A stretch of 64,000 nt of DNA from an uncultured Gemmatimonadales bacterium. Lineage in GTDB: Bacteria > Gemmatimonadota > Gemmatimonadetes > Gemmatimonadales > Gemmatimonadaceae. Each line of letters starts with the position of its first letter. Within the stretch, counting starts at the first letter, position 1. The notes beneath the pieces are model-generated. The model was not told the origin of the DNA. It searched no databases and saw only the letters and a program-made list of their open reading frames with translations. The DNA is taken from NCBI GenBank assembly GCA_963793305.1, contig CAWBZV010000003.1, forward strand, positions 704,001 to 768,000. The letters are read 5' to 3'. Shown here in pieces: positions 4,010-9,929 of this stretch. The position numbers were made by a program, and so were the translations under genes.

Positions 4010-4969
4010 GTGCCGAACGTATGGAGGGCGGTGGGGAGGAGCGCCGAGGGCAGTTCGCATCGGCGGGCGAAGCTCCCGAATCAGGATGCGCTCCGACTGT
4101 GGAATCCACACGGCGACGGGCAATCGGTGATCGTCGCCGTCGCCGACGGCCACGGGAGCGCCACGCATTTTCGCAGCGCGACGGGTTCGCGGTTCGCGGT
4201 GGAGGTGGCCGAGCGGGTGTTGCGCGATCTCGATGGCGCGTTGCGCGCGGGCGGCGCGCTGGACGCTGAGCGCGAGCAGTGGATTCGGAAGGAGATCGTC
4301 TCGCGCTGGCGTGCGTGCTGTATCGCGGACGCCGAGGCGAACCCGTTCACGTCGGCCGAGGAGGTACGTCTGAGCGGAGCGGGCGCGCGCGACCAGATCT
4401 TCGATCGCGCGCTGGCCTACGGCTCGACGCTGCTCGCGGGGTTAGCCACCGACGGGCGCCTCGTACTGCTGCAGATCGGCGACGGCGACATCCTCGCGGT
4501 CGATGCGGCGGGATCCCAGTTCCGTCCTTTCCCCCGCGACGCTCGTCACGTCGCGAACCTCACGACGTCACTCTGTCTCCCGGACGCGGTCGACAACGTC
4601 CGCGTGGCGTCGCTCTCGCCGAACACGATCTCCCTCCTTCTCTTCGCGACCGACGGCTACGCCAACTCCTTCGCCTCAAGCGAGGCTTTCGAGCGCGTCG
4701 TCGGCCCGCAGATTCTCTCACAGGTGCGCGAGCGGGGGGTCTCCTGGGTCTCTCAGGTTCTTCCGAGCTCCCTCAAAGCCGCGGCCGAGCGTGGCAGCGG
4801 CGACGACGTGACGCTCGCGATTCTCACATGCGAGGACGCCCCAGCCGGAGCCATTGCCCCGGGGCAAGGTCGCAGCGATGCACCGGTGACGCTCAGCGGG
4901 CTCGTGGTCATGCTGGGCGTGCTGCTCGTGGTCGGGTTGTGTCTCTGGCGAGTACTGCTGCCCCGTTGA
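4010..4969 (+). CDS. PP2C-family protein phosphatase with C-terminal membrane anchor
   Basis: NQDA, VADGHGS, QIGDG, ATDG and GDDVT motifs; hydrophobic C-terminus; GTG start inferred. Confidence 0.85.
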   Translation: MPNVWRAVGRSAEGSSHRRAKLPNQDALRLWNPHGDGQSVIVAVADGHGSATHFRSATGSRFAVEVAERVLRDLDGALRAGGALDAEREQWIRKEIVSRWRACCIADAEANPFTSAEEVRLSGAGARDQIFDRALAYGSTLLAGLATDGRLVLLQIGDGDILAVDAAGSQFRPFPRDARHVANLTTSLCLPDAVDNVRVASLSPNTISLLLFATDGYANSFASSEAFERVVGPQILSQVRERGVSWVSQVLPSSLKAAAERGSGDDVTLAILTCEDAPAGAIAPGQGRSDAPVTLSGLVVMLGVLLVVGLCLWRVLLPR

Positions 4970-4971
4970 CG

Positions 4972-5027
4972 GGAAAGACGAAACCCCGGGGAATCCTCCC
5001 CCGGGGTCACGCGGCAGCCCAGGAAGC
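4972..5027 (-). ncRNA. Putative small RNA 2, antisense to a tRNA variant with anticodon loop CCAGGAA/CUAGGAA
   Basis: Predicted RNA GCUUCCUGGGCUGCCGCGUGACCCCGGGGGAGGAUUCCCCGGGGUUUCGUCUUUCC; paralogue of sRNA 1 with its own promoter and terminator hairpin. Confidence 0.65.
4983..5007 (-). terminator. Intrinsic terminator hairpin of sRNA 2
   Basis: 9-bp stem accccgggg/ccccggggt followed on the minus strand by TTCGTCTTT. Confidence 0.7.
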
Positions 5028-5034
5028 GACTGAC

Positions 5035-5062
5035 AATCTAGGTCATGCTCCGGCGCAATCAA
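5035..5062 (-). promoter_or_regulatory. Sigma70-like promoter of sRNA 2
   Basis: Minus strand TTGATT-N16-TAGATT; the -10 box ends 7 nt before the antisense sequence begins. Confidence 0.6.
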
Positions 5063-5083
5063 CGTGCAACATTCCACGTCCAC

Positions 5084-5139
5084 AAAATGCGAAACCCCGG
5101 GGAATCTTCCCCCCGGGGTGACGCGGCAGCCTCGCAAGC
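5084..5139 (-). ncRNA. Putative small RNA 1, exact antisense to the adjacent tRNA anticodon arm
   Basis: Predicted RNA GCUUGCGAGGCUGCCGCGUCACCCCGGGGGGAAGAUUCCCCGGGGUUUCGCAUUUU; first 20 nt are perfectly complementary to the tRNA (5247-5266), next 7 nt to its 5' acceptor strand. Confidence 0.75.
5094..5119 (-). terminator. Intrinsic terminator hairpin of sRNA 1
   Basis: 9-bp stem accccgggg/ccccggggt followed on the minus strand by TTCGCATTTT. Confidence 0.7.
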
Positions 5140-5145
5140 AACTAT

Positions 5146-5174
5146 AATTTAGGCCGCTCTCACAGCGTGGTCAA
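5146..5174 (-). promoter_or_regulatory. Sigma70-like promoter of sRNA 1
   Basis: Minus strand TTGACC-N17-TAAATT; predicted start near 5139 coincides with the first antisense base. Confidence 0.7.
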
Positions 5175-5201
5175 CGTGTAATCACGCACGGCGAACTAGC
5201 G

Positions 5202-5287
5202 TGCCGAGGACGGGATTTGAACCCGCACGGCCCTTTCGAGCCAGCAGCTTGCGAGGCTGCCGCGTCTACCAGTTCCGCCACCCCGGC
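5202..5287 (-). tRNA. Class II tRNA with Leu-type body and CGC (Ala) anticodon; CCA not encoded
   Basis: Cloverleaf GCCGGGG-TG-GCG GAACTGGTAGA CGC-G-GCAGC CTCGCAA GCTGC-T-GGCTC GAAA GGGCC-GT-GCGGG TTCAAAT CCCGT-CCTCGGC-A; anticodon at 5251-5253. Confidence 0.92.
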
Positions 5288-5368
5288 ACCTCGCGTGCTG
5301 GGCGAACACTGGGAATACTGCGACACAGTAGCCAAGAAAAGCGCACCACGACTAGTCAGCGGGCGAAG

Positions 5369-5397
5369 AGTATAGCGAGTCTCCGCCACGCCGTCAT
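5369..5397 (-). promoter_or_regulatory. Putative sigma70 promoter of the tRNA
   Basis: Minus strand ATGACG-N17-TATACT about 80 nt upstream of the tRNA. Confidence 0.5.
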
Positions 5398-5452
5398 CGT
5401 TGAGTTGCGAACCGTATCGTTAAGCACTGAGCGATCTACAACGAGTCGAGCG

Positions 5453-7462
5453 TCAGCGCAATCCTTGGCCTGCGCTTGTCGTTCCAAGCTGCTGCTCGCC
5501 CCAAATGTAATGCCCGAACCAGTCCAGGTTCTCCTGCATGACCGATCGTTGCTGCTTGGGTTTGTCGATTGGGTGCCCGAACCCGGGATACACGACCATG
5601 CGCACCGGCACGCCCTTATCGCGAAGCGCCTGATAGAGCTCGAACCCATTCGGGATGGGCACGCGCTTGTCGCTCCCCCCATGCTGTATCAGCGTAGGAG
5701 TCTTCGCGGTCTTGATGTACGTGATGGGCGACGTCTTCTTGTAGATCTCCGGATCATCCCACGGCGTCGCGTGGAGATACTGTCGCGTAAAGGGATGGAT
5801 GTCGGTATTGACATAGTAGGTCATCCAGTCGGAGATGCCCGCCCCGACCGAGACCGCCCGGAACCGATCGCTGAACGTGGTGATGAACGCCGAGATGTAC
5901 CCACCTTCGCTCCACCCCATGGATGCCACTCGGCTCCGATCGACGAACCCTCGAGCGATGAGATAGTCGACGCCAGAGATGACGTCGGCATAGTCCCCGA
6001 CGCCCAAGTTGCGCACATTGAGCGCCCGGAACTTCTCGCCGTATCCGGCCGAGCCGCGATAGTTCGGCCTCAGGATAACGGCGCCTTTGGAGGCAAAGAG
6101 CTCGACGGGATAGTATCGATCCGCGCCGAGCGTGGTGCGATCGACGCCGGTCGGCCCGCCGTGGATGACGACGAGCAGAGGGTATTTCTTGGTGGAGTCG
6201 AACCCAGGCGGCGTGATGAGCACGCCTTCGACGGCCGCGCCGTCGGTGGATTTCCACTGCACGAGCTGCCGTCGGGCCGACTTGAACGCCGACAGCTGGT
6301 CCCCCATGGTTGTAATCGCTTTCGGCGCGAACGGTTTGATGTCGGAGACGCCGATCTCCGGATACGCATTATCCCCGGCCGCGACGAACGCGCACGGTGC
6401 TCGCGTGCCGCGCGAGCGAGAACTGGCCGGCGATGCGCTTGGGATCGGAGAGCGTCTCGACGGTGCCAGACTTGGGATCGACGCGAGAGAGCACCTGGTA
6501 GGTACGCTCAAGCGGTGAGAAGTAGATGCCGTCCTTGTCCCAAGCGAACGGCGACGCATTCTCGTCGAACGACGTGGTGATCGCACGCGGCGTACCACCG
6601 TTCGCACTCACCACCGCGATGACCGTGTTCGTGTAGTAGAAGTACGGACTCCCATTGGCGGTCGAGAACGCGATCTCGTTCCCGTCCGGCGACCACACGG
6701 GGTTCGTATTGGGGCCGCCGGCCTCGACGATCTTCTTGACGCTCTTGTCGGCGACGGTGACGACGTAGATGGCGGCGGTGTTGGACGAGCCGAGGTCGGG
6801 ATCGCGCTGTGCGGAGAACGCGATGCGGGAGCCGTCGGGCGACCACGCGTATGAGCCGACGGTGAACTGGTCGCCCTCGGTCAGCCGCCGCGGCTCGCCG
6901 CCGGCCGCGTCGACGAGCCACAGGTGGCTCATCGAGTAGTCGCCGCCGATGACCTGGATGTCGCCGTAGGTACTATCGCGATCTTTGCGCGCTTTGGATT
7001 TCGGGTCGCGACTCACGAACGCGATGCTGCGTCCATCGGGCGACCACTCGAGCTCCGAGACGCCGGTCTCGACGCGCGTCAGCTCTCGCGCTTCGCCGCC
7101 GTTCGGCGCGATGACGTAGATCTGCGTCGAGTCCTCGAGCTTCCCGCCGGGCAGCGCGACGGGCCGCGTGGAGAGGAACGCGATCCATTGCCCGTCGGGC
7201 GACCATTTCGCGTCGAAGCTCGACCCTTTGCCGCTGGTGAGCTGCACGCGCTGTGTGCCGGCGGCGTCCGCCAGCCACAGCTCGCGCTCGAACGCATTGG
7301 CCTCCCAGTTCGTGTGGGAGACTTCGTACGCGACCCACTTTCCGTCGGGCGAGATGCGCGGCGCATTCGCGCTTTTCATCTCCAGGGACTGGTCGATCGT
7401 GGGAGCCTGAGCGTGGCGGGGAGTGCCGCACCGAGCACGAGTACAATCGCGAGTTTTCGCAT
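5453..7462 (-). CDS. S9 family peptidase (PD40 propeller plus prolyl oligopeptidase domain), two frameshifts
   Basis: Signal peptide MRKLAIVLVLG from 7462; WSPDG repeats (ORF 6369-7379); HGGP, GWSEGG, HGGSDKRVP and GFGH catalytic motifs (ORF 5453-6607); shifts near 7415 and 6390. Confidence 0.85.
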
Positions 7463-7569: not shown

Positions 7570-9929
7570 GTGAACGGCTCGATCTCCGACACCAACCGTA
7601 GCGCTGACGCGCTGTGGGCCGCTGTCGCGCGGCTCGTGGGGGCCGAGTACGACTTGGCGGGCGAGTTGAGCGCGACGACGGATGGGCGGAGGACGGCCTA
7701 CATCGCGACGCGTCGCACGCCGGAGCGCGAGCTGGTGCTGCTGGTCGTCGAGCGCGGGCCTGAGCCGGATGCCTACGAGCTGTCGTTGCACGAGGTGCTC
7801 GACGAGAGCGTGCCCGCGCGCGATCTCTATTGCCGGCACTGCGGGAACCGTCTCGAGACGTGGGCGGCCGCGTGTCCGGTGTGCCACCAGAACACGGCGC
7901 TCGCCACCGCGATCCCTCGCGGCCAGGTCTCTGACCTGAGCCTCCGCTCGGCCGTCGCCTCGGCCCTGGGCGCCGACAGTACGCCACTGGGCCAACTGCC
8001 GACTGCGTCGGGCAGCATCGCGGTGTTCGCGCGGGCGGCCCGCACCGGCGAGATCGTCGCGTTGACGCTGGAGCGGATCGGCGGGTCGACGGGGCCAACG
8101 CGCGCGGTGCCGATCGTTCGCCTACAGCGTCACAACACGCCAACGTCTACGGTCTGTCGCGGCAACGTCCGCACCGGTGGCCGAGGCAGCATCGACGGCG
8201 CCGAGCGCGCCCAAGCGGCCGTCGTCGCCGCACAGCGGCGAGATCGGGCCGTTGCCCGAGCGAGACCGCTCGCTCGTAACGACGTCGCCATCGTCCGGCG
8301 AGCCCGGCGTGCTCTCGCTCATGTGCCCGCGCTGCGGCTCGCGGTTCGAAGCCGGCGCGCGATTCTGCCCGGTCGATGGGGCCGAGCTGCGCGCGATCCC
8401 GCTGCAGGATGATCTGGTCGGCCGCGTGGTCGGCGGCAAGTTCCGCGTCGAGAAGCTGCTCGGCCAAGGCGGGATGGGTCGCGTGTACCTGGCGGAACAC
8501 GTCCGGATCGGTCGCCGTTGCGCGCTCAAGGTGTTGGCCCCGAACCTCGTCGGCGATCCCAGCTCGATTCGCCGATTCGACGGGGAAGCGCGGAACGCGA
8601 GCCGGATCGTGCATCCCAGCGTCGCGGTCGTCTACGATTTCGAGGAGACGCCGGACGGCCTCGTGTATCTCGTGCTGGAGTACGTCGACGGCGAGACGCT
8701 CGGCGCGATCCTGGGTCGTTCGGAGAACCAGCGACTCGAACGTCACGCGCTCGATGCAGATCGCGCGCGAAGTCGCCGACGCGTTGCAAGCCGCGCACGA
8801 TCTCGGGATCGTGCACCGCGACCTGAAGCCCGACAACATCATGCTGACACAGCAGGACCGCGTGAAAGTCGTGGATTTCGGGATCGCGAAGGCGATGGAG
8901 ACGGCCGGCCCGGGTCAGCACGGAGTGACGCGCACGGGGTTCGTCGTGGGCACGCCGCGCTACATGAGCCCCGAGCAGCTCGCCGGCACGAACGTCGACG
9001 CGCGCTCCGACATTTACGCGTTGGGCTGTGTGCTCTACGAGATGGTGACGGGCCGCGCCGCGTACGACGCGCCGATCACGACTGAGCGCACGATGCGTTC
9101 CCAGCCGCGGTTCCGCGAAGACGCCCCACGCGCACTCGACGCGATCATCACGAAGGCAATGTCGCGCGCCGCCGAGGGGCGTTTCCAGACGGCGCGCGAG
9201 ATGCGGGATGCATTGGACGCGCTGCTCGCTCGCGGCCGCGCCACTTCGCGCCGCGCGCTATTCACGCGGATCGGGATCGCCGTCGCCGCGGTCGCGGGCG
9301 TCGCCGCCGGGGCTGTCGCGGTCGTGAGTCGGTCGCATCCACAGTCGCCGGCCCCATCGTCGCAGTCGTCGCCGCCCGCTGCGACCGTCGTCGCCTCTAC
9401 GGCGCCGAGTGTCTCGCCACCGCCGACGCCGGTACCTTCAGCGCCGACAACGCCGGCCGCGAACACCAAGCCCGCGCAGTCGCCGCCGGTGCAGCCCAAG
9501 CCCAAGGTGCCGCAACCGACGGTACCGCAGCCGACGGTCAAGGCTCGCACGCCGACTCCGGCGTCGCCGCCTCCCGAGTCGGCCGTCACGTCAGACTACC
9601 TCGGCCGCCCACTCCAGTATTTGGTTCACGTCAAGCGAGTGATTCGTGAGGAGTGGGTCCAAGCGCTCGAGGGCGCTCAGCCGAGGGGCCCTGAGCACGC
9701 CGAGTTCGCGCTGGTGATGGACGAGACGGGGCGGGTCGTTCAGGTGAAGCCGATCTCGGTGTCGGGCCAGGCGGCCTACGACGACCCGCTCGAGTCGTCA
9801 CTGCAACGGATCGTCACATTCGGCCCGCCGCCACCGCGCGTGGGCCGCGAGGTCCACGTTGAGTTCCACGGGTTCGGTCTGACGGTTAAGGCCGGGAACC
9901 TCGAGACGCCTACAGTGCCGGCTCGCTGA
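7570..9929 (+). CDS. Hanks-type Ser/Thr kinase with N-terminal zinc ribbons, TM segment, Pro-rich linker and TonB-C-like tail; frameshifted
   Basis: GGAGG RBS then GTG 7570; CxxC pairs; [20 protein letters not shown] and GTPRYMSPE spread over three overlapping frames (shifts near 8150 and 8735). Confidence 0.8.

What the first reader, a model, noticed from the sequence alone, without database searches (positions are those of the whole stretch)
5202..5287. Leucine-body tRNA with alanine anticodon CGC, predicting Leu insertion at GCG codons
Seen: an intact cloverleaf with a long variable arm (GGCUC-GAAA-GGGCC), Leu-like 5' end and D arm (GCCGGGGUGGCGGAACUGGUAGACGCG), discriminator A73, C3:G70 and loop CU-CGC-AA. 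Established: AlaRS needs G3:U70, canonical tRNA-Ala has a short variable loop, and E. coli-type LeuRS does not read the anticodon. Inference: it is leucylated and decodes GCG, which is very frequent in genes here. The anticodon is unlikely to be a sequencing error because the separate copy at 5120-5139 has the same CTCGCAA loop.
Basis: partly seen in the sequence, partly recalled or inferred. Interest (0 to 1): 0.9.

Follow-up and report, generated by a model that had tools for sequence, protein, structure and literature searches.

The report
Mismatched tRNA plus own antisense RNA
An uncultured bacterium carries a well-formed tRNA built like a leucine tRNA but reading the alanine codon GCG, and next to it a tiny RNA gene that exactly complements that tRNA's codon-reading arm; the same pair, with many different anticodons, recurs in related bacteria and may be a switchable way to misread the genetic code.

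Summary
Window 5287->5202 (minus strand) is an intact class II tRNA with a leucine-type D arm, A73, C3:G70 and loop CU-CGC-AA. It is not a sequencing error or a pseudogene. The genome holds three diverged paralogues, all CGC, besides normal tRNA-Ala and a full tRNA-Leu set.

Relatives, probably Gemmatimonadota, carry 57 distinct Leu-bodied tRNAs with 14 non-Leu anticodons. Their cloverleaf is kept by compensatory changes.

The "second copy" at 5120-5139 is on the opposite strand. It is the 5' end of a small RNA gene with its own promoter and terminator. That RNA is perfectly antisense to the tRNA's anticodon loop, the 5' strand of its anticodon stem and the 3' strand of its D stem.

This tRNA-plus-antisense pairing occurs in 53 of 57 odd tRNAs and 0 of 38 genuine tRNA-Leu, and it co-varies base by base, anticodon included. 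No protein gene travels with it.

My best reading is a leucine-inserting missense tRNA for GCG, the commonest codon here, held in check by a dedicated antisense RNA. Charging, decoding and expression are all untested.

I found no description of this pairing in the literature I searched.

The parts
5202..5287 (-). Class II, leucine-type tRNA with anticodon CGC (A73 at 5202; ARAGORN adds one base, 5201)
   Evidence: ARAGORN; Rfam RF00005 at 55.1 bits; family cloverleaf 98.7% paired, 18 of 24 pairs with compensatory changes
5251..5253 (-). Anticodon C34-G35-C36, which reads GCG
   Evidence: Sequence; unchanged in contigs of runs X1, X2 and X3
5369..5397 (-). Candidate promoter of the tRNA (ATGACG-17-TATACT), about 75 nt upstream of the tRNA
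   Evidence: Consensus scan: 2 sites found against 0.0 expected. Function not shown
5318..5326 (-). Upstream motif GTGTCGCAG, shared by many modules; role unknown
   Evidence: G[TC]GTCG lies within 70 nt upstream in 28 of 55 odd tRNAs against 3 of 38 genuine tRNA-Leu
5146..5174 (-). Promoter of small RNA 1 (TTGACC-17-TAAATT). The -10 box ends 6 nt before the antisense segment
   Evidence: TTG of the -35 box and TA...T of the -10 box are invariant or nearly so across 32 modules. The motif is present in 44 of 55 odd loci against 1 of 38 genuine tRNA-Leu loci
5120..5139 (-). 5' antisense segment of small RNA 1 (GCUUGCGAGGCUGCCGCGUC). It is perfectly complementary to raw tRNA bases 22-41: the 3' strand of the D stem, base 26, the 5' strand of the anticodon stem, the whole anticodon loop and 2 nt beyond
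   Evidence: Inverted repeat I2, 20 nt, 100%; the tRNA is its only perfect target in the genome; predicted cofold gain -20.9 kcal/mol
5083..5119 (-). GC hairpin (ACCCCGGGGGG-AAGAUU-CCCCGGGGU) plus U-rich tail: terminator of small RNA 1 and probably of read-through from the tRNA
   Evidence: Sequence; fold; a T-run follows the seed within 90 nt in 49 of 55 modules. The strict terminator scan did not call it
5035..5062 (-). Promoter-like site of small RNA 2 (TTGATT-16-TAGATT)
   Evidence: Read from the sequence and by alignment with unit 1. It scores 8 of 12 consensus matches, below the threshold of the scan
5008..5027 (-). 5' segment of small RNA 2 (GCUUCCUGGGCUGCCGCGUG). It equals small RNA 1 except for 4 bases opposite tRNA positions 33-36. 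It would fit a loop C-C-AGG-AA, and no such tRNA is in the assembly
   Evidence: Direct repeat D1; (no cognate sequence elsewhere in the genome)
4972..5008 (-). Terminator hairpin and tail of small RNA 2
   Evidence: Terminator-like site, 12 pairs, tail TCGTCTTTCC

Best explanation
The locus is an RNA-only module of two gene types. Gene 1 is a class II tRNA whose body cannot be told apart from this lineage's tRNA-Leu but whose anticodon is CGC. Genes 2 and 3 are roughly 50-nt RNAs, each with its own sigma-70-type promoter and a hairpin terminator. The first 20 nt of small RNA 1 are the exact complement of the tRNA's anticodon loop and the neighbouring 5' strand. Inferred mechanism: the single-stranded 5' end of the small RNA first pairs with the exposed anticodon loop. 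The duplex then spreads into the anticodon stem and D stem and unfolds the tRNA, so that it cannot decode or is degraded. When the small RNA is scarce, the free tRNA is charged by the cell's only LeuRS, which in bacteria does not read the anticodon. It then inserts leucine at GCG, the most frequent codon. The pair would thus work as a masked, conditional missense tRNA, with toxin/antitoxin-like logic. Shown here: both genes, their signals, the complementarity and its co-variation, the family, and the patchy distribution. Inferred: expression, pairing in the cell, leucylation, decoding and any phenotype.
For: tRNA is real and under selection:
- 33 family members keep the cloverleaf in 98.7% of cells, and 18 of 24 pairs show double changes (0 of 500 shuffles reach this).
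- A73 and the D-arm and T-arm residues are invariant.
- No alignment column that is at least 80% conserved differs between 57 odd tRNAs and 38 genuine tRNA-Leu.
- G3:U70 occurs in 0 of 33.
- The genome has one LeuRS.

Antisense partner:
- Alignment score of 20 or more in 53 of 57 odd tRNAs against 0 of 38 genuine tRNA-Leu.
- A tRNA's own seed is the best or tied-best match in 31 of 33 modules.
- 15 of the 20 intermolecular pairs show double changes. The anticodon columns are paired in 31 of 32 modules, with 11, 6 and 3 double changes.
- A promoter motif lies between tRNA and seed in 44 of 55 odd loci against 1 of 38 genuine loci, and its -10 box mostly ends 5-8 nt before the seed.
- Predicted pairing gain is -20.9 kcal/mol for the cognate pair and 0 to -6.8 for non-cognate pairs.

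Evolution:
- At one orthologous locus in four genomes of the genus the anticodon is CGC, CGC, CUC and CAC. In the three congeners the small RNA seed complements that tRNA's anticodon arm. In the window's own genome (paralogue p1) the seed instead complements the variable arm.
- The syntenic PP2C/S9 gap in G005 is 88 bp instead of 562 bp and holds no module.
- No conserved protein neighbour in 33 loci.
- GCG is the top codon at 63.9 per 1000. The family's anticodons read 8 of the 11 most used codons.
Against: - There are no expression data. The one RNA run laid (X20) gave only short pieces of 88-95% likeness over the tRNA's 5' half and upstream, which could be other Leu tRNAs or DNA.
- Charging is untested. 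Overall identity does not separate Leu from this genome's tRNA-Ser(GGA), both at 76.2%.
- 12 of 57 family members have C33 instead of the near-universal U33, against 0 of 38 genuine tRNA-Leu. That would weaken decoding and could point to a role outside translation.
- Complementarity between neighbouring inverted copies could be kept partly by DNA-level gene conversion rather than by selection on RNA pairing.
- Paralogue p1 of this genome lacks the anti-anticodon segment. Its small RNA complements the variable arm instead.
- Four of 57 odd tRNAs have no anti-anticodon partner: L014, L029, L069 and p1.
- Three CGC copies per genome, kept over a whole order, are hard to reconcile with a purely harmful product.
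Confidence: 0.45

Rival explanations
1. The tRNA-shaped RNA is made but does not take part in normal decoding. The pair is a regulatory RNA duo with another job. For example, an uncharged A-site ligand for frequent codons could stall ribosomes or trigger the stringent response. Alternatively it could be a tRNA used outside the ribosome, with the small RNA as its switch.
For: C33 replaces U33 in 12 of 57 members against 0 of 38 genuine tRNA-Leu. The anticodon changes freely between orthologues. Mukai et al. proposed 'regulatory noncoding RNA' roles for some mismatched allo-tRNAs and found most allo-tRNA(UAU) inactive in translation (PMC5389517, passages seen).
Against: All elements needed for charging and ribosome use are conserved exactly as in genuine tRNA-Leu: A73, 7/5 acceptor/T arms, the T loop, G18G19 and A37. 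Within the p2 orthologue group the anticodon is kept (CGC) while the stems change. The anticodons are biased towards the most used codons.
Confidence: 0.27
2. The tRNA is charged with an amino acid other than leucine. Serine is one candidate, via the long variable arm. For members with Val, Thr, Pro or Arg anticodons the anticodon-matched amino acid is another. The consequence would then be a different missense, or none.
For: 76.2% identity to this genome's tRNA-Ser(GGA), with a very similar variable arm and T arm. SerRS recognises the long arm (established knowledge, recalled). Several synthetases read positions 35/36, which vary in this family.
Against: A73 and the D arm are of the tRNA-Leu type, not the G73 and GCCGAGUGG D arm of this genome's tRNA-Ser. 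For the window's tRNA the anticodon-matched enzyme is AlaRS, which needs G3:U70, absent in 0 of 33.
Confidence: 0.12
3. The inverted copy is a DNA-level feature, or a decaying by-product of an inverted duplication, with no RNA function. It could be a recombination site or a remnant of a mobile-element attachment site.
For: The small RNA region looks like an inverted partial copy of the tRNA's 5' half. In many modules the segment after the seed still resembles the reverse complement of the D arm. Modules are present or absent between congeners.
Against: A conserved promoter and terminator frame the antisense segment. There are compensatory changes at 15 of 20 positions across 32 diverged modules. 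No integrase, transposase or other shared protein gene was found in 33 loci, nor Pfam families of that kind in the window's neighbours. Integrase attachment sites duplicate the tRNA 3' part as a direct repeat, not the 5' half inverted.
Confidence: 0.06

Closest known systems
nev-tRNAs of nematodes (class II tRNAs with Gly CCC or Ile UAU anticodons, leucylated in vitro; PMC4300185, abstract seen in the listing)
   Same: A leucine-type long-arm body carries a non-leucine anticodon, beside a normal tRNA set. The predicted outcome is leucine at another amino acid's codon.
   Different: Eukaryotic and restricted to nematodes. No dedicated antisense RNA is described. Here the host is bacterial, with at least 14 different anticodons and a co-evolving small RNA partner.
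tRNAProX / tRNAProA of Streptomyces and relatives (PMC10404621, passages seen; review PMC11415595, passages seen)
   Same: Natural bacterial tRNAs whose identity elements and anticodon disagree, with an Ala anticodon among them. The review notes that natural mistranslators often have a non-U33. Here 12 of 57 members have C33.
   Different: Proline identity with class I bodies, and some come with a dedicated ProRS paralogue. Here the body is leucine-type, there is one LeuRS, and the partner is an antisense RNA. The word 'antisense' occurs 0 times in PMC10404621.
allo-tRNAs of Acidobacteria and others (Mukai et al. 2017, PMC5389517; passages seen)
   Same: Long-arm bacterial tRNAs with many non-cognate anticodons, patchy in distribution, with a suggested link to toxin-antitoxin loci and to regulatory roles.
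   Different: allo-tRNAs are defined by 8/4 or 9/3 acceptor/T arms and a tRNA-Sec-like D arm. This family has the canonical 7/5 arrangement and a tRNA-Leu D arm. The paper's text holds no occurrence of 'antisense' or 'complementary'.
RNA-only toxin-antitoxin pairs such as CreTA (PMC8501985, abstract seen in the listing) and antisense-RNA antitoxins of type I systems (recalled)
   Same: Two adjacent small RNA genes, one potentially harmful to translation and the other a specific RNA antidote. Distribution is patchy and addiction-like.
   Different: CreT is an mRNA-like RNA that sequesters a rare tRNA, and CreA works through Cascade at the DNA level. Type I antitoxins pair with a toxin mRNA. Here the presumed harmful RNA is itself a tRNA and the antidote pairs directly with it. 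Toxicity is untested.
   Same: The same two-gene logic in another phylum, according to that note.
   Different: That tRNA is described as unusually shaped and allo-tRNA-like. I did not see its sequence or test it, so it is a lead and not evidence.

Membership tests
Bacterial tRNA-Leu (class II) | Long variable arm forming a stem-loop | tested here: met
   GGCUC-GAAA-GGGCC. The four variable-arm pairs are 100% paired in 33 family members.
Bacterial tRNA-Leu (class II) | Discriminator A73 and a Leu-type D arm (G10-C25, A14, A15, G18G19, GGYGGAAYUGGUAGACRC) | tested here: met
   These residues are invariant in 33 of 33. No column that is at least 80% conserved differs from 38 genuine tRNA-Leu of the same genomes. 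That A73 and D-arm architecture are LeuRS determinants is recalled knowledge.
Bacterial tRNA-Leu (class II) | Leucine anticodon (NAG or YAA) | tested here: not met
   The anticodon is CGC. The genome has separate tRNA-Leu genes with GAG, UAG, CAG, UAA and CAA.
Bacterial tRNA-Leu (class II) | Charged by LeuRS | not testable with these tools
   One bacterial-type LeuRS gene is present (859.8 bits).
tRNA-Ala | G3:U70 wobble pair (AlaRS identity) | tested here: not met
   C3:G70 in the window. The 3:70 pair is CG in 21, GC in 8 and UA in 4 of the family, and GU in 0 of 33.
tRNA-Ala | Class I body with a short variable loop | tested here: not met
   86 nt with a 16-nt arm. It is 59-62% identical to the genome's four 73-76-nt tRNA-Ala genes.
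allo-tRNA (Mukai 2017) | 8/4 or 9/3 acceptor/T-stem configuration | tested here: not met
   A 7-bp acceptor stem and a 5-bp T stem are supported by co-variation (helices 1 and 5).
T-box riboswitch (tRNA-sensing leader) | Specifier loop, T-box antiterminator and a regulated downstream gene | tested here: not met
   No Rfam match other than tRNA at gathering score, and no T-box match at E up to 10 in 4900-5500. Nothing lies downstream except a second unit and the end of a convergent gene.
tRNA-gene attachment site of an integrative element | Direct repeat of the tRNA 3' part, plus an integrase nearby | tested here: not met
   The repeat is inverted and covers the 5' half. The neighbours are a PP2C phosphatase and an S9 peptidase. 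No shared protein gene was found in 33 loci.
RNA antitoxin / toxin pair (type I, III, VIII logic) | Adjacent genes, with a specific RNA antidote complementary to or binding the harmful product | tested here: met
   Adjacency and specific complementarity are shown.
RNA antitoxin / toxin pair (type I, III, VIII logic) | Toxicity of one partner, neutralised by a more labile partner | not testable with these tools
   No expression, stability or growth data are available.

The most novel reading that the evidence does not exclude
A toxin-antitoxin-like or abortive-infection-like system made only of RNA, in which the toxin is a tRNA. A leucine-charged tRNA aimed at one of the host's most used codons is held inactive by a short-lived antisense RNA. 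It is released when transcription fails, for example during phage attack or stress, and floods the proteome with missense errors. The codon target is re-aimed by single anticodon changes that the antisense gene follows, as seen for CGC, CUC and CAC at one locus in sister species.
Probability: 0.25. Interest if true: 0.95.

Novelty: categorically new. Interest (0 to 1): 0.88.

Why it matters
If the tRNA decodes, this is a natural, widespread bacterial device for switchable, codon-specific misreading of the genetic code. Its control element is of a new kind: an RNA that masks a tRNA's anticodon.

- It would extend natural mistranslation beyond the proline-type tRNAs of Streptomyces.
- It would give a first example of a small RNA whose dedicated target is a tRNA.
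- It would offer a ready-made, programmable tRNA/anti-tRNA pair for synthetic biology.
- It makes a long-standing question directly testable: are mismatched tRNAs in genomes used, and how do cells survive them? The antisense partner predicts exactly which perturbation should unmask the phenotype.

Even if the tRNA does not decode, a co-evolving tRNA/antisense pair is new RNA biology. It is conserved across an order, with 22 of 151 sampled genomes of the phylum carrying it.

Tried and rejected
- **Sequencing or assembly error in the anticodon.** Rejected. There are three paralogues, 26 distinct CGC members, and independent contigs.
- **Pseudogene.** Rejected on compensatory changes.
- **A further antisense copy of the D arm in the 5' leader.** I suspected this by eye, but scores do not differ: odd tRNAs median 14, genuine tRNA-Leu 13, shuffled 12.
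- **Sigma-54 or ECF promoter for the tRNA.** Spacings are inconsistent between modules when read from the sequences, so I make no claim.
- **Conserved protein partner.** The only cluster spanning 8 of 33 loci consists of spurious ORFs running across the tRNA gene itself.
- **Synteny of the window's module with relatives' modules.** None of the other module loci has PP2C or S9 homologues.
- **Expression.** RNA run X20 gave only three partial, low-likeness pieces, so there is no evidence either way. The small word shares in soil and wetland runs were not used for any habitat claim.
- **Wider distribution.** It cannot say whether the module occurs in other phyla. The viral scan gave 1 tRNA-like hit in 19, without an antisense partner.
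- **Score threshold of the module model.** Three matches at 82-83 bits were ordinary tRNA-Leu, so I dropped them from the count.
- **Rows dropped from alignments.** L014, L029 and L069 (no partner) were dropped from A1-A3, and L151 (p1) from A2 and A3.
- **Literature.** Searches and passage look-ups found no description of a tRNA with a dedicated antisense RNA gene, nor of Leu-bodied mismatched tRNAs in Gemmatimonadota. The library is open-access only, so this is not proof of absence.

Full report
**The object**

ARAGORN finds one tRNA in the window, at 5201-5287 on the minus strand, with anticodon cgc. Rfam's tRNA model matches 5202-5287 at 55.1 bits against a gathering score of 29.

Read on the minus strand, it has these parts:
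- a 7-bp acceptor stem with C3:G70 and a G5-U68 wobble;
- the D arm GUGGCGGAACUGGUAGACGCG;
- the anticodon stem GCAGC/GCUGC and the loop C-U-CGC-A-A;
- a 16-nt variable arm, GGCUC-GAAA-GGGCC;
- a standard T arm and A73.

**Not an error, not a pseudogene**

A whole-genome ARAGORN run finds three 87-nt genes of this kind on contig C3, at 451773, 636248 and 709201. The last is the window's tRNA. They are 77-79% identical to each other once the anticodon is removed, and all three have CGC.

The same genome also has:
- ordinary 73-76-nt tRNA-Ala genes (CGC twice, GGC, UGC);
- all five tRNA-Leu types;
- one LeuRS.

A Logan contig of run X1 covers 4950-5420 with a single difference, outside the tRNA. 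X1 may be the source sample, so it is not independent. Contigs of X2 and X3 differ at two positions of the anticodon arm but keep CGC.

**A family with many anticodons**

I collected members from three sources:
- a DNA search of 61 related genomes;
- regions fetched from them;
- a model search of 151 genomes of the phylum.

Together they give 57 distinct tRNAs with the leucine-type body and a non-leucine anticodon:

| Anticodon | Amino acid of codon read | Count |
|---|---|---|
| CGC | Ala | 26 |
| GGC | Ala | 6 |
| CAC | Val | 6 |
| CUC | Glu | 4 |
| GUC | Asp | 3 |
| GAC | Val | 3 |
| GCG | Arg | 2 |
| GGA, AGG, CGG, UGC, AGC, GCC, GGU | Ser, Pro, Pro, Ala, Ala, Gly, Thr | 1 each |

Nine of the CGC members came from a CGC-specific pattern scan, so the CGC share is inflated.

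In an alignment of 33 members:
- the cloverleaf is paired in 98.7% of cells;
- 18 of 24 pairs show changes on both sides;
- 0 of 500 shuffles reach that;
- A73, A14, A15, G18, G19 and the T loop are invariant.

No column that is at least 80% conserved differs between the 57 odd tRNAs and 38 genuine tRNA-Leu from the same genomes. G3:U70 occurs in none of the 33.

Two things distinguish the odd tRNAs from genuine tRNA-Leu. A37 is present in 56 of 57. C33 replaces U33 in 12 of 57, against 0 of 38.

The named MAG records that carry the closest modules are labelled Gemmatimonadota, Gemmatimonadales or Gemmatimonadaceae: 8 of the 9 tRNA-bearing hits. From that I infer the phylum of the unnamed host genome.

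**The antisense partner**

On the tRNA's strand the order is as follows:
- the tRNA, 5287->5202;
- a promoter, TTGACC-17-TAAATT, at 5174->5146;
- six bases of spacer;
- GCUUGCGAGGCUGCCGCGUC at 5139->5120;
- a 10-bp GC hairpin with a U-rich tail, down to about 5083.

This is the layout of a ~50-nt RNA. Its free 5' end complements raw tRNA bases 22-41, and a terminator hairpin follows (fold). The tRNA is its only perfect target in the genome.

A second, tandem unit lies at 5062->4972. It is the same except for four bases opposite tRNA positions 33-36. It would fit a loop C-C-AGG-A-A, and no such tRNA is in the assembly.

**The pairing holds across the family and is specific**

I aligned the reverse complement of each tRNA's anticodon arm against the 220 nt downstream of it.

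| Group | Scores of 20 or more |
|---|---|
| Odd tRNAs | 53 of 57 |
| Genuine tRNA-Leu | 0 of 38 (maximum 19) |

The same test on upstream sequence gave one value above 18 among 36 odd tRNAs.

- Each tRNA's own downstream seed is its best or tied-best match among all seeds in 31 of 33 cases.
- On a MAFFT alignment of 32 whole modules, 15 of the 20 intermolecular pairs have changes on both sides.
- tRNA positions 26-38 are paired in at least 30 of 32 modules.
- The three anticodon columns are paired in 31 of 32, with 11, 6 and 3 double changes.
- Sliding the partner by 1-3 columns drops pairing from 93.6% to about 40%.
- The TTG of the -35 box and the TA...T of the -10 box are invariant or nearly so.
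- The promoter motif lies between tRNA and seed in 44 of 55 odd loci against 1 of 38 genuine tRNA-Leu loci. Its -10 box mostly ends 5-8 nt before the seed, which places the transcription start at the seed.
- Predicted heterodimer gains are -20.9 kcal/mol for the window's pair and -9.5 for paralogue p2's pair. Non-cognate combinations give 0 to -6.8. These are secondary-structure energies only.

**Exceptions**

- Paralogue p1 of this genome has no anti-anticodon seed. Its small RNA carries 14 nt complementary to the tRNA's variable arm.
- L014 (CGG), L029 (UGC) and L069 (a Gammaproteobacteria-labelled MAG) have no partner.

**Distribution and dynamics**

I built a covariance model that encodes the D, variable and T stems plus 13 intermolecular pairs. 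In the window's own genome it scores:

| Target | Bits |
|---|---|
| p2 | 137.5 |
| Window module | 136.8 |
| p1 | 87.6 |
| Ordinary tRNA-Leu | 46-70 |

In 151 genomes sampled across the phylum, 25 have a match at E of 1e-14 or better. The three weakest, at 82-83 bits, proved to be ordinary tRNA-Leu. All 27 other loci I examined hold an odd tRNA with its partner. That leaves 22 of 151 genomes:

| Family | Genomes with the module |
|---|---|
| f1 | 4 of 31, plus the window's genome |
| f2 | 14 of 71 |
| f3 | 2 of 2 |
| f5 | 1 of 1 |
| Eight other families | 0 of 45 |

The search used stricter filters above 40 genomes, so these are lower bounds.

Further observations:
- Genomes carry up to five modules (G136).
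- Two modules can sit 660 bp apart (L206).
- No protein family is shared by the flanks of 33 loci.
- The window's neighbours are a PP2C phosphatase and an S9 peptidase.
- In congener G005 those two genes are 88 bp apart instead of 562 bp, with no module between them.
- At another locus with conserved flanks in four congeners the anticodon is CGC, CGC, CUC and CAC. In the three congeners (L158, L159, L160) the seed complements each tRNA's own anticodon arm. In the window's genome (p1) the seed is the anti-variable-arm one noted above. One of the congeners, L158, has a second small RNA unit complementary to the D arm.

**Reading**

Established knowledge, recalled and not tested here:
- bacterial LeuRS ignores the anticodon and relies on A73 and D-arm architecture;
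- AlaRS needs G3:U70;
- antisense RNAs often start pairing at U-turn loops that resemble anticodon loops.

On that basis the most economical reading is a leucine-accepting tRNA aimed at GCG. GCG is the most used codon in this genome, at 63.9 per 1000 in 1,688 long ORFs. A dedicated antisense RNA would normally mask or destroy this tRNA.

Several features suit toxin/antitoxin-like or conditional-mistranslation logic:
- the partner has its own consensus-like promoter;
- the module is gained and lost between close relatives;
- the anticodons are biased towards the most used codons, reading 8 of the top 11;
- the anticodon switches readily.

Nothing here shows expression, pairing in vivo, charging or decoding. 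The C33 variants and the long-term retention of several copies are equally compatible with a role outside decoding. I therefore give the mistranslation-switch reading 0.45 and list three rivals.

**Comparison with what is known**

The closest known systems are:
- nematode nev-tRNAs (PMC4300185, abstract only);
- Streptomyces tRNAProX (PMC10404621, and review PMC11415595; passages);
- allo-tRNAs (PMC5389517; passages);
- RNA-only CreTA pairs (PMC8501985, abstract).

None of these combines a tRNA with a dedicated antisense RNA gene. Five full-text searches found no such description. The library is open-access only.

An earlier, unchecked note of this scan (e1-5264216) reports a similar tRNA-plus-anti-anticodon pair in Thermoleophilia. 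If that is correct, the principle reaches beyond this phylum.

Noticed in passing
window 5453-7379 (minus strand): The S9 peptidase next to the module is read as two overlapping ORFs. One (5453-6607) holds the Peptidase_S9 catalytic domain. The other (6369-7379) holds the PD40/DPPIV beta-propeller. This could be a frameshift, an assembly error or a split gene.
   Followed up: no
window 8376-9929 (plus strand): An ORF combines a Ser/Thr protein kinase domain with a C-terminal TonB_2 domain. This is an unusual pairing.
   Followed up: no
window 5318-5326 and the upstream regions of L045, L054, L064, L082, L196, L204, L219 and others: A conserved leader lies upstream of many odd tRNAs (GCCAGCGGCA...GTTG.GA...GCGTCGCAGCA.CCAG...GTGCCAGA). 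In the window's genus it reads GTGTCGCAGCAYCCAGT. G[TC]GTCG is found in 28 of 55 odd tRNAs against 3 of 38 genuine tRNA-Leu. It could be a special promoter or a regulator site. It is not a detectable antisense copy of the D arm.
   Followed up: partly
L158 (G001:C90), downstream of the first small RNA: A second small RNA unit with its own TTGACG...TATAGT promoter. Its 5' end (GTGTCTACCAGTTCCACCA) is the reverse complement of the tRNA's D arm rather than its anticodon arm. Tandem partner RNAs with different targets on the same tRNA therefore recur.
   Followed up: partly
L206 (G113:C7), tRNAs at 900-987 and 1563-1650: Two complete modules (Ala CGC with C33, and Val GAC) lie in tandem about 660 bp apart, with near-identical upstream regions.
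   Followed up: no
L069 (Gammaproteobacteria-labelled MAG, JAPPDJ010000098.1): A Leu-type long-arm tRNA with anticodon CGC and a much longer variable arm, outside Gemmatimonadota and without an antisense partner. ARAGORN's boundaries look shifted by a few bases.
   Followed up: no
L232 (IMGVR_UViG_2512564078_000001): A viral or proviral contig with a class II tRNA-like sequence that has loop CUCGCAA but a poorly paired acceptor stem and no antisense partner. It may be a tRNA fragment at a prophage end.
   Followed up: no
G000 contigs C3:412684, C3:616291, C5:831649, C12:141242, C12:205543, C14:171327: ARAGORN calls six further 79-100-nt 'tRNAs' with odd anticodons. They lack the GG/TTC motifs, and none was among the matches of the module model. 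They are probably false positives in GC-rich coding sequence.
   Followed up: partly
G000 C5:432842 and C11:60848: The genome encodes a tRNA-Ile with anticodon UAU and a tRNA-Sec.
   Followed up: no
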